From Actinomycetota bacterium (lineage in GTDB: Bacteria > Actinomycetota > Actinomycetes > Nanopelagicales > Nanopelagicaceae): a stretch of 41,751 nucleotides of DNA. The stretch spans positions 1-41,751 of the forward strand of contig RGER01000001.1 of NCBI GenBank assembly GCA_009917815.1, read 5' to 3'. The notes below the pieces were generated by a model. That model had not been told where the DNA came from. It did not search any database and saw only the letters and a program-made list of their open reading frames with translations. Below are positions 877 to 41,751 of this stretch, piece by piece. Numbering within the stretch: position 1 is the first letter of the stretch; the number at the start of each line of letters is the position of its first letter. The translations under genes and the position numbers were made by a program.

Positions 877-1059
877 ATGTCAAATTATCTTGAATATCCA
901 ACTTGTTTCGCTTGTCGTTCCATTGATTTGGAAATAGTTACGCATGCAGATTTTGGGCCAATGTTCATGTGCGATGAGTGTGGATACTCCTGGGTCGCCT
1001 CATTCGAGAGCATCGACCCTGAGATTTCTCAATTCGTCGTAAAACTTAAGGTAGCCTGA
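877..1059 (+). CDS. small zinc-ribbon-like protein (CxxC...CxxC)
   Basis: 60-aa ORF with CFAC and CDEC pairs about 22 residues apart. A GAAGGGAAG Shine-Dalgarno-like sequence lies just upstream of the ATG. Confidence 0.5.
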   Translation: MSNYLEYPTCFACRSIDLEIVTHADFGPMFMCDECGYSWVASFESIDPEISQFVVKLKVA

Positions 1060-1077
1060 CCTCATTAGCAGTGAGGT

Positions 1078-1533
1078 CTACTTCTTCTTATAACCTGCTG
1101 GGCAGACGGGCTTAAGGCCAGCCACCTTCTTACTAACTTTGCCCTTCACGCAAATGATGGTCTTACTATTTGCTGCTTCTTTCTCGAGTAAGGGAATCGA
1201 GAAGCTAAATTCACCGGTCTCTTCTTCCGCATAACTCTTGAGAATTTCTATATCCGTCGTGATATCCGTCAAACTCGTGTTGATGAACTCTCGTACATGT
1301 AAGAAATCCTTAAGAATGAAATTATAGGAACTTAGCAATTTTGGGTTATTGGCTGTCTTCGCCTTAATTGCCAAGATCCGTGCATATTGCGCATCAAAGA
1401 TTGGATCGTACTGCGCGTGGATTGCCACGACTTGTTGCTCACGCGTAGGTAGTACGTCGGCAGCTCGCGCGACTCCCGTAAATCCAACAAAGAGAGAAAG
1501 TACTAGGACTCCCGTAGCGAACTTGCGGTTCAT
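1078..1533 (-). CDS. secreted protein with lysine-rich two-cysteine C-terminal tag
   Basis: Signal peptide MNRKFATGVLVLSLFVGFTGVARA/AD. The C-terminus TIICVKGKVSKKVAGLKPVCPAGYKKK is shared with two other ORFs in this window. Confidence 0.8.
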   Translation of the reverse strand: MNRKFATGVLVLSLFVGFTGVARAADVLPTREQQVVAIHAQYDPIFDAQYARILAIKAKTANNPKLLSSYNFILKDFLHVREFINTSLTDITTDIEILKSYAEEETGEFSFSIPLLEKEAANSKTIICVKGKVSKKVAGLKPVCPAGYKKK

Positions 1534-1603
1534 ACTTTCAAGGTACTTCGCCGAACTACGAAACGCAATGAAAGTTGACTGTGATCTGCGACCACTTGCA
1601 AAG

Positions 1604-2923
1604 CTACTTCTTCTTATACCCCGCAGGACACTTCGGGTTGATCCCCGAAATTTTCTTCACAGTTTTACCCTTCACACAGGAAATAGTGATCTGTTTGGTG
1701 ACTGGCTTTGCACTCGCTTTTACCGGAGCGGCGTCGGCTGCGCTGACTTGAGATGGCGCGCTTGGCGCCACAGACGCGGGTGGTTGAAACCGAATACGAA
1801 TGGTATTGGTTGAGTAATGGTACCCATAACCGCGAATTTCCACAGTGTCGCTGGCGGAAACATATTTCGTTGAATAGGTAGCAGTTTGCGGTGTGCCATC
1901 GCTTGAAGTTACTTCAATAATCGCTTCATTCATGGTCTTAGGCTCCAGCTTGAAAACCTTGCGGATCATGTCTCCGCGAATGCTTGCCTCAACCCAGCCC
2001 GTAATGAGATCGCCAAAGATGTCGAAGTGTGTGCCGGTCGAGACCACTTGAATCATTTTCGTTGCAGGATCGACCGTGACGCGAGATTCACATCCACCGT
2101 TCTGAGTAATGAAGATTCCCCCAGGGGGAGTCCCTTGCAATATTGCATACTCGCGATAGTAGGGCTCGATATTGATGGAGAATTCCACGTTGTAGAAATT
2201 TGCGACTAATTCGTTACCGCCCGGTGCGTTACAGGGACTTTGTTTCGTGTTATCGAACCACTTATATTCGTTTACTTCCTGGACTGTGCCTGAGGCAATA
2301 ATTCGATTTTTGCCATCTGGGCCTTTCTTCACCTCGAGGCTCGGATTCTTCATACGGGCGAGACCAATTCCTGCATTTTTCCCACCTGCATCAGAGACAA
2401 CTGTGAGCCTGAAGGTCGTTCCTGGCTTAAGAGTGACCCACGCATTGTCGTTCGCCGGAATCTTGCTTCGCTTAGGAACCAATCCGTTCTGAGCTTGAAG
2501 CGAGAGCGAAATCCTGGGGTAGCCGGGCACTTCTTCCAGCGATGTGACGGTTGCGGTTACAAATTGATCTGTCCCATCCACTGCAGCACCTTTGAACCAA
2601 TAGCAATAGTCGGCGTAGCTGGCGTTGCCGTAACCACACTTGAGCTCACCGGGAGCACTCTCCTGAAGGGGTAGGTCCACACCAGGCTTCCAAAGGGAGC
2701 TCTTTTCTTCAACGGCAGGAACCCATTGCTGAGTTGCATCATCGAGAATCTCGACCGACTCAATGCAATTATCTTTTATCTCGATGCTCTTGCAATTTAC
2801 CCACCAGGTCTTTGCATTCACATTCACTGAAGCGCCCGGGATGATGTCGCCTTCAGCAGCAAGCACAGGTTGGACAGCGAGCAACGAGAGGCCAAGCGAG
2901 AGAAGTATCCGCGGAAGCCGCAC
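1604..2923 (-). CDS. secreted protein (439 aa) with lysine-rich two-cysteine C-terminal tag
   Basis: Signal peptide MRLPRILLSLGLSLLAVQPVLA/AE. A Pro/Ala/Ser linker is followed by ITISCVKGKTVKKISGINPKCPAGYKKK at the C-terminus. Confidence 0.85.
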   Translation of the reverse strand: MRLPRILLSLGLSLLAVQPVLAAEGDIIPGASVNVNAKTWWVNCKSIEIKDNCIESVEILDDATQQWVPAVEEKSSLWKPGVDLPLQESAPGELKCGYGNASYADYCYWFKGAAVDGTDQFVTATVTSLEEVPGYPRISLSLQAQNGLVPKRSKIPANDNAWVTLKPGTTFRLTVVSDAGGKNAGIGLARMKNPSLEVKKGPDGKNRIIASGTVQEVNEYKWFDNTKQSPCNAPGGNELVANFYNVEFSINIEPYYREYAILQGTPPGGIFITQNGGCESRVTVDPATKMIQVVSTGTHFDIFGDLITGWVEASIRGDMIRKVFKLEPKTMNEAIIEVTSSDGTPQTATYSTKYVSASDTVEIRGYGYHYSTNTIRIRFQPPASVAPSAPSQVSAADAAPVKASAKPVTKQITISCVKGKTVKKISGINPKCPAGYKKK

Positions 2924-32216: not shown

Positions 32217-32252
32217 TTATTCCACTATGTGCCTAGCCCAGATAATGAAGAC

Positions 32253-35200
32253 ATGATGCGAACCAAAGTTTCGAAATTCGATTTTGAAGACTCACTTGTT
32301 AACTTGGGTAGGTTCTTTACTAAGGGTGAAACTTCCTCCGACCTTCGATCGATTACCAAGAGCGGAGGGCGTGAGGGCGATGTCTTCTACCGTGATAGAT
32401 GGAGCCATGACAAAGTTGTTCGTTCCACACATGGAGTTAATTGCACCGGATCGTGTTCATGGAAGGTCTATGTAAAAGACGGCATCATTACGTGGGAGAC
32501 ACAGCAAACGGATTATCCATCTGTTGGCCCCGACTCCCCCGAGTATGAACCGCGAGGTTGCCCTCGCGGAGCAGCATTTTCTTGGTATACCTACTCACCG
32601 ACCCGCATACGTTTCCCATACATTCGTGGAATTCTTCTTGAGCTCTATCGCGAAGCTAAGAATCGCTTAAATGATCCCGTGCTCGCGTGGGCTGATGTGG
32701 TCGATAACCCAGTCTCTCGAAAGGCTTATCATCGCGCACGAGGTAAGGGTGGCTTGGTAAGAGCTAGCTGGAGCGAGGTAGCCGAAATTATCTCTGCCGC
32801 ACATGTTCATACCATCAAGAAATATGGACCAGATCGGGTTTTTGGCTTCTCTCCCATCCCTGCTATGTCAATGGCATCGCACGCAGCTGGTGCTCGATTC
32901 ATTTCTCTCCTAGGTGGAGCGATGCTCTCCTTCTATGACTGGTATGCCGATCTCCCAGTTGCCTCACCGCAAGTGTTTGGTGATCAAACTGACGTCCCCG
33001 AATCAGCCGATTGGTTTAACGCCTCTTATTTGATCATGTGGGGCTCTAATGTGCCTGTCACGCGTACCCCTGACGCTCACTTCATGACTGAAGCGCGTTA
33101 TCGTGGACAGAAAGTGGTAGCCATCAGTCCCGACTATGCAGACAATACAAAGTTTGCGGATGAATGGGTCGCCCCTCATCCCGGGACTGATGGCGCCCTG
33201 GGCATGGCGATGGGTCATGTCATACTCAAAGAATTCTTTATCGAAAAACAGACGCCTCGCTTTACCGATTATGTGAAGAAATACACAGATCTTCCGTATC
33301 TAGTTACGTTACGCGAAAAAGATGGCGCATGGATTCCCGATAAGTTCTTGGTAGCTTCAGATCTGGGCGATTTGTCTGAAGGTGCAAAATTCAAGACAGT
33401 GCTCCTTAATTCCGCCAGCAACGAGCCCTATATACCTAATGGATCGCTTGGACATCGATACAACGACGAGTCCATGGGAAAGTGGAATCTCGACCTCGAG
33501 GGCGTTGATCCAATTCTCACTTTGATCGGAGCGGCAAACTCAACTCCACTGAAAGTTGCTATGCCCCGTTTCGATATGGGTCAAGAGGATTCCGAGGGTG
33601 GAGGTGTACTACATCGAGGAGTACCAACGATTCGTGTTGCTGACCGACACGTAACCACTGTTTTCGATCTCATGTTGGCCCAATACGGAGTGGGTCGAGA
33701 AGGGCTTCCTGGGGAGTGGCCAACCGATTACACAGATCCGCTTCCTTATACACCGGCCTGGCAAGAAACGATTACAAACGTACCAGCCCAACAAGTAATT
33801 CGAATCGCCCGCGAATTCGCCCAAAATGCAGATGAATCTGAAGGTCGTTCAATGATTCTTCTCGGTGCAGGAACTAATCATTGGTTTCACTCAGACACGA
33901 TGTATCGCACTTTTCTCGCACTCGTCACTCTCACTGGATGTCAAGGAGTAAATGGTGGCGGCTGGGCGCACTATGTTGGTCAGGAAAAGTGTCGTCCGGT
34001 AACAGGTTGGGCCCAGCTCGCCTTTGGAGCTGATTGGTCTCGTCCCGCTCGGCAAATGATCGGCACTGCTTTCTGGTATGTATCCACGGATCAATGGCGC
34101 TATGACGCTCTTAAATCTGAACTTCTAGCAACACCACTCGGAGAAGAACGCTTCGCCGACATGACAGGCATCGACATTCTTGCAAAATCTGCACGCATGG
34201 GATGGATGCCTTCTTATCCTTCACTCAATAGAAATTCGCTCGACCTAGTAGATGAAGCACGTGAGTTGAGTGTCGATCCTGCGCAACATGTCGTCAACGA
34301 GTTGAAGAATGGCAATATCCAGTTTGCTATTGAGGATCCAGACGCGCAAGAGAATTGGCCACGAGTCTTGACTGTATGGCGAGCAAACATTCTTGGGTCA
34401 TCCAGTAAAGGAAATGAGTACTTCCTTAAGCATTTACTCGGCACCGATAATTCTGTCCGGGCTGAAGAGAACGGAGCGGATAACCGTCCACGCGATGTGA
34501 AGTGGCATGAAGATGCTCCAGAAGGCAAACTTGATTTACTCGTTTCTATCGACTTTCGGATGACAAGCACGGGTCTCTTCGGAGATATTTTGCTCCCAGC
34601 CGCTACTTGGTACGAGAAGCATGACCTCTCTAGTACAGATATGCATCCTTTCATCCATGCGTTCACCCCAGCAATCAAACCTCCTTGGGAAACTAAGACC
34701 GACTACGACATCTTCCAAATGCTTGGACGCGAAGTTGCTCAGCTCTCGCATGGCCACTTAGACGAGCGCGAAGATCTAGTAGTCGTTCCGCTTATCCATG
34801 ACACTCCTGATGCAATGGCCAACCCAAGTGGAATTGTGGCTGATTGGAAAGAGGGCGAGATTGAGCCGATTCCAGGGGTGACAATGCCCAAACTCATCGT
34901 TGTGAAGCGCGACTATCGCCAAATCGGCGAAAAGATGGGCGCTTTAGGACCCCTGGTCGATCAACTCGGCACCAACACCAAAGGTGTGCCGGTATCCGTA
35001 CTCCCGGAAATCGAATTACTGCGCCACTCTAATGGTGTTATCTCCCATGGTGTCGCTGCTGGACGTCCATCGCTTGCTCGTGACGTAGACGCCTGCGAAA
35101 CCATTCTGGCTCTCTCTGGAACAACTAACGGCAGAGTGGCAGTTGCCGGTTTCCGAGCGTTAGAACGCCGTACAGGACAGAAGCTCACAGATCTGGCGCT

Positions 35201-35936
35201 TGATAACGAAGGTAAGAGAATTACCTTTGCAGATACCCAAGCAAGACCAGTTCCAGTTATTACTAGCCCTGAATGGTCTGGTTCAGAACACGGTGGACGG
35301 CGCTATACCGCCTTTGCAATCAATGTGGAGCGCCTCAAGCCATGGCACACACTCACAGGTCGCCAACACTTCTTTATTGATCACGATTGGATGACAGAGC
35401 TTGGCGAACAACTTCCGATCTTTCGTCCCCCGCTAAATATGCACCGAATATTTGGCTCACAAGCGGAAGGAATCGAGAAAGAAGTGACAGTTCGGTATTT
35501 AACGCCACATTCAAAGTGGTCGATTCACTCCGAATATCAAGACAATCTCTTCATGCTCTCGCTCTCCCGTGGCGGACAAGAAATATGGATGAGCGTGGAG
35601 GATGCCGAGACTATAGGTGTTGCCGATAACGAATGGATCGAGGCCTATAACCGCAACGGGGTCGTTGTAGCTCGTGCGTGCGTCTCTCATCGGATGCCCA
35701 AGGGAACAGTCTTTATGTATCACGCCAAAGATCGTGTAGTAGATGTCCCGTTAGCGGAAACTTCCGGAAAGCGGGGAGGAATTCACAATTCACTGACTCG
35801 ACTCATTCTTAAGCCGACACACCTTATCGGTGGGTATGCCCAACTTACCTTTGCTTTTAACTATCTCGGACCCACCGGGAATCAGCGTGATGAGGTCACC
35901 GTAATCCGCCGACGTTCACAAGATGTGGAGTACTAA
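32253..35936 (+). CDS. narG: respiratory nitrate reductase alpha subunit
   Basis: [30 protein letters not shown] (FS0 cluster motif) with NarG-like sequence throughout. The start is either the ATG at 32253 (possibly leaderless) or the GTG at 32229 from the ORF track. Confidence 0.97.
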   Translation: [1227 protein letters not shown]

Positions 35937-37492
35937 TGAAAGTTATGGCCCAAATGGGCATGGTCATGAATCTCGATAAATGTATCGGATGCCATACCTG
36001 CTCAGTGACGTGCAAACAAGCCTGGACGAATCGCACAGGGCTCGAATACGCGTGGTTTAACAATGTCGAGACACGTCCAGGCCAAGGGTATCCCCGTCGT
36101 TACGAAGATCAGGAGAAGGCTAAGGGTGGATGGATAAGGAATTCACGAGGTCGCCTCAAACTCAAGGGAGGAAGTAAAGCTCGTCGACTACTTTCCATTT
36201 TTTCAAATCCAAAGATGCTCAATATCAAGGATTACTACGAGCCATGGACATACGAGTACGACAATCTCATTACAGCTCCACTCGGGCAACAAACACCTGT
36301 AGCGCGTCCGAAATCTCTGCTGACAGGTAAGCCAATGAAGATTGAGTGGTCTGCAAATTGGGATGATGATTTGGGCGGTGGGCCTGCCAATATTGAAAAG
36401 GATCCCATCCTTCAGAAACTTGCTGAGGATGTCACTACTAAAGTAAAACTCGCCTTTGAACAGACGTTCATGTTCTATCTTCCGCGAATCTGCGAGCACT
36501 GTCTCAATCCCGCATGCGTAGCTGCCTGCCCGTCAGGAGCAATGTACAAGCGAGAAGAGGATGGCATCGTGCTAGTTGATCAACAGCAATGCCGCGGTTG
36601 GCGGATGTGCGTCTCCGCCTGCCCCTATAAGAAGATCTATTTCAATCATAAAACCGGGAAAGCAGAGAAATGCACGCTCTGCTACCCAAGATTAGAGCTC
36701 GGGCTTCCCACGGTCTGTTCTGAGACCTGCGTAGGACGCCTACGCTACCTAGGCCTCTTTCTCTACGATGCCGACAAGGTTGCCGAAGCAGCCGCAACAG
36801 AAGACGAAAGAGATCTATACCAAGCCCAACTCGATTTACTACTTGACCCTAACGACGAAGAAGTCTTGAAAGCCGCACGCGCTTCAGGAATTCCGGAAGA
36901 TTGGTTAATTGCGGCACAGAACTCTCCCGTCTATAAACTTGCCAAGGTTTATAAGATCGCACTTCCACTCCATCCGGAATATCGAACAATGCCGATGGTT
37001 TGGTATGTACCTCCACTCTCACCCATAGTCGATGTACTTACCGAGACCGGACATGATGGCGAGGAGGCAGGAAATCTCTTCGGAGCTATCAACGCACTCC
37101 GTATCCCGTTGGCTTACCTTGCCGAACTCTTCTCAGCTGGAGATATCGAGGTAGTTGAAAATACCTTACGCAAGCTATCCGCAATGCGCTCCTACATGCG
37201 TGATATCAACCTGGGTAGAGAGCCTCGCCCAGAAATTCCCGAGGCGGTTGGCATGGATCAGGAATCCATTTATGAAATGTATCGGCTCCTTGCTATTGCT
37301 AAATATGAGGATCGGTATGTCATTCCAGCGGCCCATGCGGAGCAAGCTAAAGACCTGGAGAACATGGGCTGTTCACTCGACGGTGTTGATCTTGGAGCCA
37401 ACTCAAGTGGACCGTTTGGTCAATCCTCTGGAAACCCCGTGCCTGTAACTATTGAGAATTTCCACATTATGAAGGATAGGCAGACTCAATGA
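35936..37492 (+). CDS. narH: respiratory nitrate reductase beta subunit
   Basis: Fe-S motifs CIGCHTCSVTCK, CEHCLNPACVAACPSGA, CRGWRMCVSACPY and CTLCYPR. 518 aa. Its ATG overlaps the narG stop. Confidence 0.97.
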   Translation: MKVMAQMGMVMNLDKCIGCHTCSVTCKQAWTNRTGLEYAWFNNVETRPGQGYPRRYEDQEKAKGGWIRNSRGRLKLKGGSKARRLLSIFSNPKMLNIKDYYEPWTYEYDNLITAPLGQQTPVARPKSLLTGKPMKIEWSANWDDDLGGGPANIEKDPILQKLAEDVTTKVKLAFEQTFMFYLPRICEHCLNPACVAACPSGAMYKREEDGIVLVDQQQCRGWRMCVSACPYKKIYFNHKTGKAEKCTLCYPRLELGLPTVCSETCVGRLRYLGLFLYDADKVAEAAATEDERDLYQAQLDLLLDPNDEEVLKAARASGIPEDWLIAAQNSPVYKLAKVYKIALPLHPEYRTMPMVWYVPPLSPIVDVLTETGHDGEEAGNLFGAINALRIPLAYLAELFSAGDIEVVENTLRKLSAMRSYMRDINLGREPRPEIPEAVGMDQESIYEMYRLLAIAKYEDRYVIPAAHAEQAKDLENMGCSLDGVDLGANSSGPFGQSSGNPVPVTIENFHIMKDRQTQ

Positions 37493-38130
37493 GTAAGGAA
37501 AAGGCGCGGGCAGTATGTGCCTTTGCGCTCATTTATCCAGAAGAGGACTTCTTCGCTAAAGCTGCCGCAATGCAAGCATTGATAAACGGCACCCCGGAGG
37601 TACTCAGTGTTCCGTTATCTGCCTTTTTTGAAGAAGTAAATGAGTTGTCTCTGTATGAACTACAACAGCACTATGTAGAGACTTTCGATATGAGAAGAAA
37701 GTGTTCATTATTCCTTACCTCATGGACACATGGTGATACCCGAAATAGAGGGATGGCACTACTTTATTTCAAGCAACTCTACCAACGTTGTGGATTGACT
37801 CTCTCCGACGAAGAGCTTCCTGATCACCTGGCCGTGGTACTCGAATTCGCAGCGCTTCAAGACCCTGTCGAGGGCGAGCTGCTTCTCGCAGAACATCACG
37901 CTGCCCTCACGCTCATATTAGATGCACTTACCAAGGCCAATTCTCCTTACCGGCATATTCTCGAGTGTGTTACCGCTACCTTGCCAATAATTACTGCGGA
38001 GATCGAAGAGCGCGCCAAGGCCTTAGCGCTCTCCGGCCCCCCAAAGGAATTCGTTGGTCTCAGTGGTGCTGTTTCAATAGCGCTCGAACCGTTCTCATCA
38101 CGAAATATCTTTGAGGGAGTGGCACAATGA
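37489..38130 (+). CDS. narJ: nitrate reductase molybdenum cofactor assembly chaperone
   Basis: Position between narH and narI, 213 aa, with NarJ-like sequence YVETFD...LPDHLAVVLEF. Confidence 0.9.
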   Translation: MSKEKARAVCAFALIYPEEDFFAKAAAMQALINGTPEVLSVPLSAFFEEVNELSLYELQQHYVETFDMRRKCSLFLTSWTHGDTRNRGMALLYFKQLYQRCGLTLSDEELPDHLAVVLEFAALQDPVEGELLLAEHHAALTLILDALTKANSPYRHILECVTATLPIITAEIEERAKALALSGPPKEFVGLSGAVSIALEPFSSRNIFEGVAQ

Positions 38131-38867
38131 GCTCGCCAAATATTTTGCTCTGGACTGTCTTGCCTTACATTGCCATTGCCGCTTTTGTGCTGGGGCTTGT
38201 GTGGCGCTTTAAGTATGACAAATTTAATTGGACAACACGATCCTCACAAATTTACGAAGGTAAGTTACTTCGAATTGCAGGTCCACTCTTTCATCTCGGA
38301 CTCTTCGCAGTGATTGGTGGCCATATAGTTGGTCTTCTTGTTCCCCAAACCTTTACCGATAAGTTAGGGCTGAGCCATCAGGCTTACCACCTTGGAGCGG
38401 TCACGATGGGCGGCGGAGCGGGCGTCGCCACTTTGCTTGGAATCTCATTACTTATTTATCGACGTCGGACAAGTGCAATGGTGTTTGCAGCGACCACTCG
38501 AAATGATAAGACGATGTACATCTTCCTCGTTGCTACTCTGTTGGCTGGCTCAAGCGCAACACTTTCGAGTGCAGGCGTCCTTGGGGAAGAGCACAACTAT
38601 CGTGAGACTGTTGGCCCTTGGGCGCGTTCAATTCTCACCTTTAGCCCCCATGGCGAGTACATGATGGCTAGCCCCCTAGCATTTCGAATCCACGCTGTAG
38701 CTGCCATGTCACTCTTTATTATCTGGCCCTTTACACGTCTGGTCCACTCTCTTAGCGCACCCGTGGGCTACCTCTTTAGGCCTTCAATTGTGTACCGCTC
38801 CCGTGACAATCAATCTACCTCGGGAAGCCGAGAGGCACGACCAGGTTGGGAGAAGGTTAAGTATTAG
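38127..38867 (+). CDS. narI: respiratory nitrate reductase gamma subunit (dihaem cytochrome b)
   Basis: 246 aa, 5 TM helices. Conserved His residues lie in FHLGLFAVIGGHIVG and RIHAV...RLVH. Confidence 0.93.
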   Translation: MSSPNILLWTVLPYIAIAAFVLGLVWRFKYDKFNWTTRSSQIYEGKLLRIAGPLFHLGLFAVIGGHIVGLLVPQTFTDKLGLSHQAYHLGAVTMGGGAGVATLLGISLLIYRRRTSAMVFAATTRNDKTMYIFLVATLLAGSSATLSSAGVLGEEHNYRETVGPWARSILTFSPHGEYMMASPLAFRIHAVAAMSLFIIWPFTRLVHSLSAPVGYLFRPSIVYRSRDNQSTSGSREARPGWEKVKY

Positions 38868-40461: not shown

Positions 40462-41751
40462 TTACTTCTTCGTATACCCCACCGGACACTTCGGATTTAC
40501 CGCAGTGACCTTCTTTATGGTCCTACCCTTAATGCATGTAATGGTTGAACTCTTTGGAGCGGATGCATTCTTTGAAGGAGTTGCGCTCACGGGCTTTACT
40601 TGAGTTAGCTTCACTTGCAGCGTTGGTTTCGAGAAAGTAAACCCAGTTGCTTGGAAACGCACAAAGTTATCGTCCATCTTCACTGATGAAGTAGCAATCT
40701 TGGCTTGCCCGGTTTCGCTCAGCACAGAAACTGTGGCGCTGATGCTGCCTTCTCCCAATTTCCAAATACAGCGCGAATATTTCTGATCGAGAACCATTGA
40801 ATATAGACCAGTGAATTCTTTGCCGGTGGGCATGTAGTGCGGTGATGCTACTTGGTAGTTAAGAGTGCCGACCCTCGCGTCAAAGACAGGAAGTTCAGAC
40901 GCATACGTAAGAGCGTTTGAACCAACGAATCCGAGGAAGCCCTTCTGCGTACACGAACCGAGCGGACCAGTGTATACACCGCCCCATGAGGCATTGAGCA
41001 GCCATTTATCGACGAGGCCTGTCGCAATATCCAAATCTGAATCCGCCTTCACCGCCGAAGTGAATTCATTGATATTGGTAGGCCCAAGCCCTGGTCCGGC
41101 CGAATAATTGAGCGTCCACGGCAGATCAAAGATTTTGGCGACCTTTTCCCACGAAGCCCGTTCAGCCGGCACGTCATAGAAGTATTGCTTGGAGAGTTTC
41201 GGAGTGGGAACTGGGCTTCCTGAAATCGTCAACCGAAATGGTTGAGAAGCGGCTCCTGCGACGTCCTCATATTTCACATCGGGATTGAAGAGTCGTCCCG
41301 TAAGCCACCCGCTGGGCGCCACCGGGAGACGGAGGACAACTTTAAACTCATTAGTAGATGGATTGTTGTCATACTTCCAACACTTATCTGTGTAGATCGC
41401 CGAGTCGATGCAACGAGTCTCCTCCTTCGTCACGTCACCTCCACTCTTAGCTTCGGATCGGTACGTTCCAGGAGCGGCTTCGGATGCGTCTTGATAAACA
41501 GCATGAATTGTCATGCTGAGAGCATTCGGCTTCTGCAATACACCTTTCTTAATCCCTCGAATAAGTATCGGAGTCACCTCGAAGAGATTTCCATGATCGC
41601 TCTTGATACCCGCGAAAGTGAAGAGGTTGTTACGTCGAGCAGCGGCCAGTTCATACTCTGGTTTAGCTGGAAATGAGTAAAGACTCCAAGAAGGTGTGCG
41701 CTCGCCCGAACTCACGCCGCGTATCCAATCGGAAGTATCTGTTCGAGCAAA
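40462..41751 (-). CDS. secreted protein with lysine-rich two-cysteine C-terminal tag (5' end beyond window edge)
   Basis: The C-terminus STITCIKGRTIKKVTAVNPKCPVGYTKK matches the tags at 1078 and 1604. The frame stays open from the GTG at 41715 to the window end, and no signal peptide is visible, so the N-terminus probably lies outside the window. Confidence 0.8.
   Translation of the reverse strand, partial: FARTDTSDWIRGVSSGERTPSWSLYSFPAKPEYELAAARRNNLFTFAGIKSDHGNLFEVTPILIRGIKKGVLQKPNALSMTIHAVYQDASEAAPGTYRSEAKSGGDVTKEETRCIDSAIYTDKCWKYDNNPSTNEFKVVLRLPVAPSGWLTGRLFNPDVKYEDVAGAASQPFRLTISGSPVPTPKLSKQYFYDVPAERASWEKVAKIFDLPWTLNYSAGPGLGPTNINEFTSAVKADSDLDIATGLVDKWLLNASWGGVYTGPLGSCTQKGFLGFVGSNALTYASELPVFDARVGTLNYQVASPHYMPTGKEFTGLYSMVLDQKYSRCIWKLGEGSISATVSVLSETGQAKIATSSVKMDDNFVRFQATGFTFSKPTLQVKLTQVKPVSATPSKNASAPKSSTITCIKGRTIKKVTAVNPKCPVGYTKK

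What the first reader, a model, noticed from the sequence alone, without database searches (positions are those of the whole stretch)
1078..1690. Conserved lysine-rich, two-cysteine C-terminal module on neighbouring secreted proteins
Two adjacent signal-peptide proteins with unrelated bodies (151 aa and 439 aa) end in almost the same peptide of about 27 aa:
- TIICVKGKVSKKVAGLKPVCPAGYKKK
- ITISCVKGKTVKKISGINPKCPAGYKKK

A third copy lies 39 kb away (see next finding). The pattern is [TI]-I-x-C-[VI]-K-G-[KR]-x3-K-K-[VI]-x-[GA]-x-x-P-x-C-P-x-G-Y-[KT]-K-K at the extreme C-terminus, preceded by a Pro/Ala/Ser linker.

It is not a sortase, exosortase or GlyGly-type signal, because it has no hydrophobic helix. 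It does not resemble LysM, SH3b, PASTA or choline-binding repeats. The fixed Cys-x16-Cys spacing suggests a disulfide-stapled or metal-stapled hairpin. The net charge of about +8 suggests non-covalent docking to an anionic envelope polymer, or recognition by a dedicated processing system.

The underlying DNA has visibly diverged while the peptide is conserved. This argues for selection on the peptide rather than recent duplication.
Basis: partly seen in the sequence, partly recalled or inferred. Interest (0 to 1): 0.7.

Follow-up and report, generated by a model that had tools for sequence, protein, structure and literature searches.

The report
Unnamed cationic two-cysteine surface-protein tail
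Three secreted proteins in this window end in the same ~28-residue, lysine-rich, two-cysteine hairpin, which is an unnamed mini-domain on thousands of exported proteins of the abundant freshwater acI actinobacteria (and some of their phages) and most likely holds those proteins on the cell envelope.

Summary
Three ORFs on the minus strand (1078-1533, 1604-2923, 40462-window end) end in the same ~28-aa tail. A tail HMM scores them at E 1e-15 to 1e-17, and the next best ORF in the window scores 2.6. Synonymous sites between the copies are saturated while the peptide is conserved.

Pfam-A and NCBIfam do not match the tail, even at E <= 10. A profile search found 2,939 protein clusters carrying it. 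Genomic loci are almost all acI/Nanopelagicales, usually with carriers side by side.

Carriers nearly always have a signal peptide. Their bodies are diverse extracellular types, including trypsin-like proteases and Ig-like, fn3, LRR and BNR domains. AlphaFold models a confident beta-hairpin plus a C-terminal segment on a disordered linker.

Divergent relatives carry 2-5 tandem or internal copies, so it is an autonomous domain rather than a cleavable sorting signal. Net charge stays at +8 to +11 even where the lysine positions move.

A phage family encodes a signal-peptide protein with the same tail next to its terminase gene.

Best reading (inferred, not shown): a disulfide-stapled cationic knob that docks exported proteins non-covalently to an anionic envelope component. 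It is a new domain family of a known functional kind.

The parts
1078..1533 (-). Gene for the 151-aa secreted protein: signal peptide (residues 1-24), about 95-aa helical body with no family match, then the tail joined directly with no Pro/Thr linker.
   Evidence: ORF. No Pfam or NCBIfam hit. Orthologues down to 43 % body identity are all 151-155 aa and all keep the tail.
1081..1164 (-). Tail module copy 1: KTIICVKGKVSKKVAGLKPVCPAGYKKK (net charge +9 with its flank).
   Evidence: HMM E = 1.3e-15. Charge.
1604..2923 (-). Gene for the 439-aa secreted protein: signal peptide (residues 1-22), multi-beta-sandwich body, Pro/Ala/Ser linker, tail.
   Evidence: ORF. AlphaFold model: beta-rich body, pLDDT below 50 for residues 384-409, hairpin at 412-427. 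Orthologues at 64-98 % identity all keep the tail. No significant structural neighbour.
1697..1774 (-). Disordered Pro/Ala/Ser-rich linker of the 439-aa protein (residues 384-409).
   Evidence: pLDDT below 50. Sequence PPASVAPSAPSQVSAADAAPVKASAKP.
1607..1690 (-). Tail module copy 2: ITISCVKGKTVKKISGINPKCPAGYKKK.
   Evidence: HMM E = 1.7e-16. AlphaFold of the 45-aa tail with a 68-sequence alignment gives pLDDT about 90 and strands 18-24 and 27-33.
40462..41751 (-). Gene for the third carrier. The listed ORF is 417 aa but the frame is open to the window end, so the N-terminus is missing. Its pre-tail beta-domain is homologous to that of the 439-aa protein.
   Evidence: frame open 40465..41751. 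(E = 1e-15 over about 140 aa). It falls in the same body cluster as the 439-aa protein.
40465..40548 (-). Tail module copy 3: STITCIKGRTIKKVTAVNPKCPVGYTKK.
   Evidence: HMM E = 2.4e-17.
1058..1078 (.). 9-bp-stem inverted repeat (GACCTCA...TGAGGTC) directly after the stop codon of the 151-aa gene. It lies between that gene and the convergent 60-aa ORF and is a likely bidirectional terminator.
   Evidence: (consensus scan only) and the sequence.

Best explanation
The tail is an autonomous mini-domain of about 27-30 residues. Its consensus is KK-x-T-I-T-C-[VI]-K-G-K-x-x-K-K-V-T-A-V-[NK]-P-K-C-P-x-G-Y-K-K-K.

It forms a two-stranded beta-hairpin. The C-terminal P-x-C-P-x-G-Y segment folds back onto the hairpin, probably fixed by a disulfide between the two invariant cysteines. 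The result is a small knob with net charge about +9.

Proposed mechanism:
1. The carrier protein is exported by Sec and its signal peptide is removed.
2. The knob is oxidised outside the cell.
3. The knob binds non-covalently, mainly through charge, to an anionic component of the cell's own envelope. Candidates are a teichoic- or teichuronic-acid-like wall polymer, peptidoglycan-associated polyanions or the outer face of the membrane.
4. The cargo is thereby held at the surface on a flexible Pro/Thr/Ala linker. Cargo includes proteases, glycan-acting or glycan-binding domains and Ig-like or LRR adhesin-like bodies.

In this window it tags three exported proteins.

Shown: the existence, fold prediction, distribution, selection, charge conservation and cargo diversity of the module.

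Inferred: the disulfide, the ligand and surface retention.
For: (1) It is a real and very widespread domain. A 33-position profile finds 2,939 clusters at E <= 1e-3 and 587 at E <= 1e-10 among 1.84 billion representatives. One peptide pattern alone gives 392 confirmed stretches in species-representative genomes. The best 80 are almost all acI/Nanopelagicales.

(2) It sits on exported proteins. Nearly all full-length carriers in the 80 loci have a signal peptide.

(3) The cargo is diverse and extracellular. There are 14 unrelated body clusters. Pfam finds BIg21, trypsin, DUF3472, fn3, BNR, MG2/A2M, LRR_5, Flg_new, PUD and NHL.

(4) It is an independent folded unit on a tether. The tail has pLDDT about 90. 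In the full 439-aa model a disordered linker separates it from the body.

(5) It is a domain and not a C-terminal signal. Proteins with 2-5 tandem copies and with internal copies exist, and each copy has exactly two Cys. Tandem repetition is typical of avidity-based wall-binding modules (established knowledge for LysM, SLH, GW and choline-binding repeats).

(6) Charge is the selected property. Net charge is +8 to +11 in all orthologues of both window proteins, although the lysines move: a lost KKK end is compensated by CKKGK and GKNPK. Bodies are slightly acidic. Terminal copies carry +9.4 against +4.9 for non-terminal copies.

(7) The copies are old and under purifying selection. pS is saturated and pN is 0.20-0.27.

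(8) A phage family has taken up the module. Its conserved terL - signal-peptide protein with tail - second secreted protein block appears in 25 IMG/VR loci. This is as expected for a portable address label for the host envelope.
Against: There is no experimental or direct computational evidence for the ligand.

The envelope polymers of acI bacteria are not described in any paper found.

No peptidoglycan hydrolase was seen among about 165 carriers scanned. Such enzymes often carry wall-binding modules.

The uncharged positions (T-I-T-C, V-T-A-V, C-P-x-G-Y) are conserved more strongly than simple electrostatics requires. This could reflect fold constraints or a specific protein partner.

In acI the module is almost always single and within 4-5 residues of the C-terminus, a pattern also typical of sorting signals.

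Confidence: 0.5

Rival explanations
1. Protein-protein docking. The knob plugs into a specific receptor protein on the cell surface (a cohesin-dockerin-like arrangement, or attachment to an S-layer or scaffold). Charge plays only a supporting role.
For: The uncharged positions and the spacing are very strongly conserved across thousands of proteins. There is usually one copy per protein in acI, at the extreme C-terminus. Carriers cluster in operon-like arrays, in 18 loci together with a DUF4436 membrane protein. Mini-proteins made only of signal peptide, linker and tail exist and could compete for or cap a receptor.
Against: No single candidate receptor recurs next to carriers of different body families. 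The DUF4436 neighbour goes with one body family only. The lysine positions drift while the net charge is held, which fits a polyanion better than a shaped protein pocket. Non-terminal tandem copies have a much lower charge and divergent surfaces.
Confidence: 0.17
2. Sorting or covalent-attachment tag. A dedicated enzyme recognises the tail and then cleaves it or links the protein covalently to the wall. One version uses a lysine side chain, as L,D-transpeptidases do with the C-terminal ...YRK of Braun's lipoprotein. The system would replace sortase in these streamlined genomes.
For: The tail sits at the extreme C-terminus in 209 of 237 proteins. Many paralogous carriers per genome have unrelated bodies and Pro/Thr linkers, which is the pattern of LPXTG and PEP-CTERM proteins. 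The ...G-Y-K-K-K end resembles ...Y-R-K of Lpp (resemblance recalled from established knowledge, not tested).
Against: There is no hydrophobic helix (sequence). No NCBIfam sorting-signal model matches. Internal and tandem copies exist. The terminal residues are not conserved in orthologues: they end in YRA, YRP, YKA, YQKI or YLKVPQ. No peptidase or transpeptidase recurs in the flanks of 80 loci or in this window. The only wall enzyme seen in the window is an ordinary S13 D-Ala-D-Ala carboxypeptidase inside a housekeeping block.
Confidence: 0.12
3. Substrate-binding module. The knob binds external polyanions (algal or cyanobacterial acidic polysaccharides, extracellular DNA, humic matter) and directs enzymes to substrates, rather than binding the cell's own envelope.
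For: The cargo includes hydrolase-like and lectin-like domains: trypsin, BNR, PUD, PP2 and a GH16 neighbour. The charge is high and conserved. Tandem copies occur, as in carbohydrate-binding modules.
Against: The same tail is on proteins with no enzymatic domain, on a 151-aa helical protein and on tail-only mini-proteins. A phage-encoded secreted protein carries it, which is easier to explain by targeting to the host surface. A freely diffusing enzyme is costly for a dilute planktonic cell (inference).
Confidence: 0.1
4. Released cationic disulfide peptide. The tail is cut off at the conserved KK and acts as a defensin-like or signalling peptide.
For: It is a cationic, disulfide-stapled beta-hairpin of about 25 aa, like thanatin-, tachyplesin- or arenicin-type peptides (resemblance from general knowledge). 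A conserved dibasic KK precedes it. Signal-peptide-plus-tail mini-proteins exist.
Against: It is attached to dozens of unrelated large proteins per lineage, including tandem and internal copies. The KK is absent in many copies, including the 151-aa protein (NSKTIIC) and the third copy (KSSTITC). There is no associated immunity or export genes in the flanks.
Confidence: 0.03

Closest known systems
Non-covalent Gram-positive cell-wall-binding modules (LysM PF01476, SLH PF00395, GW/SH3_8, choline-binding CW_binding_1, SH3b)
   Same: They sit on Sec-exported proteins with unrelated catalytic or adhesive bodies, usually at a terminus behind a flexible linker, and are sometimes tandemly repeated. 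They retain the protein on the producer's envelope.
   Different: There is no sequence or profile similarity. The tail is much smaller (about 28 aa against 45-80 aa), depends on two cysteines and is usually single in acI. Its ligand is unknown.
Cationic C-terminal anchoring regions of Lactobacillus S-layer proteins (SlpA/CbsA, SLAP domain PF03217), which bind (lipo)teichoic acids
   Same: A strongly basic C-terminal region docks an otherwise acidic or neutral exported protein to anionic wall polymers by charge.
   Different: Those regions are about 60-120 aa, lack cysteines and belong to Firmicutes. No profile match was found here.
C-terminal protein-sorting signals (LPXTG/sortase, PEP-CTERM/exosortase, GlyGly-CTERM/rhombosortase, PGF-CTERM/archaeosortase, MYXO-CTERM)
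   Same: They lie at the extreme C-terminus, occur once per protein and are found on many paralogous carriers per genome with unrelated bodies. Pro/Thr-rich spacers lie upstream and the distribution is lineage-specific.
   Different: The tail has no signature motif followed by a transmembrane helix. It is a folded, soluble, charged hairpin, and internal and tandem copies exist. No NCBIfam model matches and no linked sorting enzyme was found.
Braun's lipoprotein Lpp, whose C-terminal ...Y-R-K lysine is linked to peptidoglycan by L,D-transpeptidases
   Same: A Tyr followed by basic residues at the very C-terminus of an envelope protein.
   Different: The terminal lysine is not conserved in orthologues here (YRA, YRP, YKA and others). 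The tail is a Cys-containing hairpin, not the end of a coiled coil. The bacteria are monoderm actinobacteria.
Cationic disulfide-stapled beta-hairpin peptides (thanatin, tachyplesin, arenicin, protegrin)
   Same: Size, beta-hairpin with stabilising disulfide(s), high positive charge and affinity for anionic envelope components. This is a structural analogy only.
   Different: Those are free host-defence peptides of animals. Here the hairpin is a permanent module of large bacterial proteins. There is no sequence relation and no significant fold hit.
EGF-like / cEGF modules (C-P-x-G-[YF] sub-motif)
   Same: The C-P-x-G-Y turn gives weak sub-threshold Pfam hits to cEGF, FXa_inhibition and Antistasin in one tandem protein.
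   Different: EGF domains need six cysteines in three disulfides. This module has two. All the hits are far below the gathering scores.

Membership tests
LPXTG / sortase-type cell-wall sorting signal | LPXTG-like motif followed by a hydrophobic transmembrane helix and a short basic tail | tested here: not met
   The last 45 residues of all three proteins contain no LPXTG-like motif and no hydrophobic stretch. There are no Gram_pos_anchor or NCBIfam sorting-model hits at E <= 10.
Exosortase/rhombosortase/archaeosortase C-terminal signals (PEP-CTERM, GlyGly-CTERM, PGF-CTERM, MYXO-CTERM) | Short signature motif, then a transmembrane helix, then an Arg/Lys cluster, matched by NCBIfam/TIGRFAM models | tested here: not met
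   NCBIfam r20 gives no hit for the tails or whole proteins at E <= 10. There is no TM helix in the sequence.
Exosortase/rhombosortase/archaeosortase C-terminal signals (PEP-CTERM, GlyGly-CTERM, PGF-CTERM, MYXO-CTERM) | Co-occurrence with a dedicated sorting enzyme in every carrier genome | not testable with these tools
   Whole genomes could not be fetched. Only flanks of 3 kb or less around 80 loci were examined, and no recurrent peptidase or transpeptidase was seen.
Known non-covalent wall-binding domains (LysM, SLH, GW, CW_binding_1/2, SH3b, PG_binding, SLAP) | Profile match to the Pfam family | tested here: not met
   Pfam-A gives no hit for the tails (E <= 10), the whole proteins, 79 + 87 further carriers or the tandem versions.
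Known non-covalent wall-binding domains (functional class, not homology) | Binds the producer's cell wall or wall polymer and retains the cargo at the surface | not testable with these tools
   This needs binding or localisation experiments. Indirect support: signal peptides, linkers, tandem copies and conserved charge.
Lpp-type covalent attachment through a C-terminal lysine | Invariant C-terminal Lys as the attachment residue | tested here: not met
   Orthologues of the 439-aa protein end in YRA, YRP, YKA, YRS, YQKI or YLKVPQ. About 10 % of the first 65 tails end in R, S or A.
Zinc ribbon / zinc knuckle | Four metal ligands (Cys/His), typically two CxxC knuckles | tested here: not met
   Each module has exactly two Cys and no conserved His.
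EGF-like domain | Six conserved cysteines and a Pfam EGF/cEGF match above threshold | tested here: not met
   Each module has two Cys. cEGF scores 13-19 bits against a cut-off of 26.6.
T9SS C-terminal domain | C-terminal beta-sandwich of about 70-100 aa matched by TIGR04183/PF18962, in Bacteroidota with a type IX secretion system | tested here: not met
   There is no Pfam or NCBIfam hit. The module is about 28 aa and the hosts are Actinomycetota.

The most novel reading that the evidence does not exclude
The tail is the recognition element of a previously unknown surface-display system of the genome-streamlined acI actinobacteria. In this reading a dedicated partner, either an enzyme that links the knob covalently to the wall or a specific receptor or scaffold protein, reads it. 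The system replaces sortase-type anchoring in the most abundant freshwater bacteria, and their phages exploit it to place their own proteins on the infected cell's surface.
Probability: 0.15. Interest if true: 0.85.

Novelty: new variant of a known kind. Interest (0 to 1): 0.6.

Why it matters
acI/Nanopelagicales are among the most abundant bacteria in lakes, yet how these tiny, streamlined Gram-positive cells keep exoenzymes and adhesins on their surface is undescribed. No paper found here addresses it.

A single 28-residue module tags a large and diverse part of their exported proteome. It occurs in thousands of protein clusters, often in arrays of adjacent genes, and currently has no name in Pfam or NCBIfam.

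Defining it would have four practical effects:
- It would give these 'hypothetical proteins' a predicted location, which helps the interpretation of freshwater metagenomes and metaproteomes.
- It would point to an unknown anionic envelope ligand.
- It would provide a very small portable surface-display tag.
- It would open the question of why a phage family encodes a secreted protein with the host's tail, for example superinfection exclusion or surface remodelling.

Tried and rejected
- **Named domain or sorting signal:** rejected. Pfam-A and NCBIfam gave nothing for the tails at E <= 10, the whole proteins, 166 further carriers or the tandem versions.
- **Solved or predicted structural relatives:** none. 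The PDB sequence profile search gave only a chance 11-residue match to FimA. Foldseek against PDB and BFVD gave best E-values of 1.5 and 0.22. The 439-aa body also has no significant neighbour.
- **Chance or low-complexity match:** rejected.
- **Recent duplication:** rejected, because synonymous sites are saturated.
- **Anchor-swap test:** inconclusive. I asked whether distant homologues of the 439-aa body carry LPXTG or a TM anchor in place of the tail. Homologues at 47-52 % identity instead carry a different beta-rich C-terminal domain of about 90 aa with no Pfam match.
- **Neighbour analysis for a partner enzyme:** 575 ORFs in 80 loci gave only ribosomal-protein genes, a DUF4436 membrane protein tied to one body family, a GH16 protein and a solute-binding protein.
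- **Phage lysin test:** no lysin carries the tail. The viral carriers are signal-peptide proteins, namely a 562-aa Ig-like protein and trypsin-like proteases.
- **Deposited phage genomes (INPHARED):** no match.
- **Literature:** six searches, including searches for the peptide strings themselves, found nothing on this module or on acI surface anchoring.
Full report
**1. What is in the window**

The minus strand carries two adjacent genes, 1078..1533 (151 aa) and 1604..2923 (439 aa). Their products begin with classical signal peptides. They end in ...KTIICVKGKVSKKVAGLKPVCPAGYKKK and ...ITISCVKGKTVKKISGINPKCPAGYKKK.

A six-frame motif scan finds one more copy...STITCIKGRTIKKVTAVNPKCPVGYTKK, ending the ORF at 40462..41715. 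That reading frame stays open to the last base of the window. The protein is therefore truncated by the window, and its missing signal peptide is not informative.

An HMM built from 68 tails scores the three ORFs at E = 1e-15 to 2e-17. The next best of all window ORFs scores E = 2.6.

Over the 28 tail codons the three copies are only 61-69 % identical in DNA. The proportion of synonymous differences is 0.66-0.82, which is saturated. The non-synonymous proportion is 0.20-0.27.

The 151-aa and 439-aa bodies are unrelated. The 439-aa and 417-aa proteins, however, share a homologous beta-domain upstream of the linker (E = 1e-15) and fall in the same body cluster.

The rest of the window is ordinary actinobacterial housekeeping: the folate operon, FtsH, hpt, tilS, an S13 carboxypeptidase, cytochrome oxidase, nitrate reductase and an amidase. 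No obvious partner gene is present.

**2. It has no name**

Pfam-A and NCBIfam release 20 give no hit for the whole proteins or for the isolated tails, even at E <= 10. They also give no hit on the tail of 79 + 87 further carriers or on tandem-repeat versions.

A profile search of PDB sequences gives only a chance 11-residue match. Foldseek of the modelled tail against PDB and BFVD gives nothing significant.

Six literature searches returned nothing relevant. One of them searched for the peptide strings themselves.

**3. Distribution**

- A word-seeded search with a 42-aa tail alignment returned 66 metagenomic proteins (E 4e-18 to 1e-7). Their consensus is very tight: KK-T-T-I-T-C-[VI]-K-G-K-[TL]-x-K-K-V-T-A-V-[NK]-P-K-C-P-A-G-Y-K-K-K. 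In 60 of 65 hits it ends exactly 24 residues after the first Cys.
- An exhaustive profile search of 1.84 billion representative proteins found 2,939 clusters at E <= 1e-3 and 587 at E <= 1e-10.
- In species-representative genomes one peptide pattern gave 392 confirmed stretches. The best 80 loci are almost all acI/Nanopelagicales: 'Ca. Planktophila', 'Ca. Nanopelagicus', IMCC26103, IMCC19121 and SCGC AAA044-N04. One MAG, Kiruna3_bin-1122, has a tail identical to the window's 439-aa protein.
- A carrier with one internal and one terminal copy lies on a contig with 64.6 % G+C. This suggests the module extends to high-G+C Actinomycetota, although that contig's taxon was not determined.
- Orthologues of the 439-aa protein (64-98 % identity) and of the 151-aa protein (down to 43 % body identity) all retain the tail.

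**4. Anatomy of carriers**

The 80 genomic loci (each 6 kb or less) contain 116 tail-bearing ORFs, so carriers often sit side by side, up to four in a row. Nearly all full-length carriers have an N-terminal signal peptide.

With the tail removed, the bodies fall into 14 unrelated clusters. Recognisable domains are typical of extracellular or surface proteins:
- BIg21, GOLD-like, PP2, trypsin-like peptidases and DUF3472;
- fn3, BNR and MG2/A2M;
- BspA-type LRR, Listeria-Bacteroides repeats, PUD, NHL propellers, Cyt-b5, FMN_bind and beta-helix.

No peptidoglycan hydrolase was seen. Most tails follow a Pro/Thr/Ala/Ser linker or an Ala/Lys/Glu-rich coiled-coil-like tract.

Mini-proteins made only of signal peptide, linker and tail exist. 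One (P0029) is a complete gene that heads an operon with a 583-aa carrier.

**5. Structure**

AlphaFold2 on the 45 C-terminal residues with a 68-sequence alignment gives pLDDT of about 90 over the last 25 residues. The model has strands ITISCVK and TVKKISG joined by the invariant G-K turn, followed by the N-P-K-C-P-A-G-Y segment and a short terminal strand.

In the full 439-aa model a beta-rich body is followed by a disordered linker (residues 384-409, pLDDT below 50) and then the same hairpin (pLDDT about 80). The body has no significant structural neighbour.

From the register of a two-residue hairpin turn, I18, I20, C22 and I31 lie on one face (my inference). The C-terminal segment with the second Cys, two Pro and the Tyr can cover this face.

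Each module has exactly two invariant Cys and no His, and the location is extracytoplasmic. An intradomain disulfide is therefore the natural reading. It was not measured.

**6. Domain, not signal**

The best-scoring proteins of the exhaustive search contain several copies. There are five tandem copies in P0078, P0080 and P0118, and three in P0070, P0072, P0075 and P0077.

Some copies are internal:
- the P0068 family has three copies separated by Pro/Gln linkers;
- the P0069 family has two copies upstream of a weak, sub-threshold CAP/SCP match (19.1 bits against a cut-off of 21.1);
- P0082 has one copy between two NHL propeller halves and one at the end.

Among 239 proteins held, 181 have one copy, 38 two, 12 three, 2 four and 4 five. 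In 209 of 237 the last copy ends 4-5 residues before the C-terminus.

The module is therefore an autonomous folding unit that prefers, but does not require, the C-terminus. This counts against a cleaved or processed sorting signal.

**7. Charge is what is conserved**

In every orthologue of the two window proteins the net charge of the tail, counted with six flanking residues, is +8 to +11 (mean +9.1). This holds even where the C-terminal KKK has become RA, RP, KA or QKI, because extra lysines appear elsewhere (C-K-K-G-K, G-K-N-P-K). The bodies are slightly acidic.

Terminal copies average +9.4 and non-terminal copies +4.9.

The drift of the last residues also argues against an Lpp-like mechanism that needs a C-terminal lysine.

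**8. Phages**

Forty IMG/VR contigs encode the tail. In 25 of them the gene order is conserved: terminase large subunit (PHROG hit), then a 562-aa signal-peptide protein ending in the tail, then a second secreted or membrane protein. Terminase identity across the contigs is 73-100 %. These viral loci have about 36 % G+C against about 46 % for the host loci.

The other viral contigs carry trypsin-like signal-peptide proteases with the tail. Whether those contigs are truly viral was not checked.

The 562-aa body matches none of the host carriers held here. Deposited phage genomes contain neither the protein nor the tail.

A phage-encoded exported protein bearing the host's tail fits the idea that the tail is a portable address for the host envelope.

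**9. Interpretation**

The best-supported explanation is a non-covalent, charge-driven envelope-retention module: a disulfide-stapled cationic knob on a flexible tether. I put my confidence at about 0.5.

The rivals are:
- a specific protein receptor or scaffold (0.17);
- a recognition tag for a dedicated covalent-attachment or processing enzyme (0.12);
- targeting to external polyanionic substrates (0.10);
- a released cationic peptide (0.03).

None of these can be separated decisively with the tools at hand. In particular, partner phylogenetic profiling over complete genomes and any binding experiment remain to be done. A neighbour census of 575 flanking ORFs found no recurrent processing enzyme.

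**10. Novelty**

The functional kind, a module that keeps exported proteins on a Gram-positive envelope, is well known. This domain is unrelated in sequence and size to all named families and appears to be undescribed. It is lineage-wide in one of the most abundant freshwater bacterial groups and has been taken up by phages.

I rate it a new variant of a known kind, with interest 0.6.

Noticed in passing
L085-L119 (e.g. L100:598-6706): A phage family (about 36 % G+C, contigs up to 111 kb) has a conserved block: terminase large subunit, then a 562-aa signal-peptide protein ending in the host-type tail, then an 838-aa second protein with an N-terminal hydrophobic segment. The block is seen in 25 IMG/VR loci, with terL 73-100 % identical. 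A secreted protein sits where a portal gene would be expected.
   Followed up: partly
L122:363-584 (P0029); also P0049, P0101, P0143: Mini-proteins of 73-80 aa consist only of signal peptide, short Pro/Ser/Ala linker and tail. P0029 is a complete gene whose stop overlaps the start of a 583-aa carrier, followed by a further signal-peptide protein that runs off the contig end.
   Followed up: partly
window 1081-1164 and orthologues P0273-P0290: Among 151-aa orthologues whose bodies are 98-99 % identical, the tail occurs in two distinct versions: VKGKVSKKVAGLKP and [VT]KGKTTKKVSGIKP. They differ at 4-5 positions, all in the second hairpin strand. This suggests recombination or gene conversion between tails, or diversifying selection on exposed positions.
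   Followed up: no
window 40462-41751: The third carrier's reading frame is open to the last base of the window, so the listed 417-aa ORF with a GTG start is an artefact of the window edge.
   Followed up: yes
P0257, P0259-P0269 (homologues of window 1604-2923): Homologues of the 439-aa body at 47-52 % identity (about 500 aa) replace the linker and tail by a different beta-rich C-terminal domain of about 90 aa (ending ...PIKIGSKVFKIKLIVK) with no Pfam match. It may be an alternative anchoring domain.
   Followed up: partly
L035:271-1278 and 17 other loci: A DUF4436 protein of about 336 aa with an N-terminal membrane helix lies directly upstream of the paired 550-600-aa carriers of the largest body family. 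These arrays often sit next to ribosomal-protein genes (S13, S11, S4).
   Followed up: partly
window 877-1078: A 60-aa ORF with two CxxC pairs (CFAC...CDEC, zinc-ribbon-like) converges on the 151-aa gene. A 9-bp-stem hairpin at 1058-1078 between them looks like a shared terminator.
   Followed up: no
window 32229-38867: Four consecutive plus-strand ORFs (1235, 518, 213 and 246 aa) have sizes that fit a respiratory nitrate reductase narGHJI cluster. The Pfam families found in the window (Molybdopterin, Fer4_11, Nitr_red_bet_C, Nitrate_red_gam) also fit. The assignment of families to individual ORFs is inferred. Such a cluster is not what one expects in a streamlined acI-type genome.
   Followed up: no
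L009, L025, L029, L038, L072, L076: Several MAGs carrying typical tails are labelled Bifidobacterium, Flavobacteriales or Acidimicrobium in their records. These are probably mis-binned or mis-labelled acI-type contigs, not true occurrences in those taxa.
   Followed up: no
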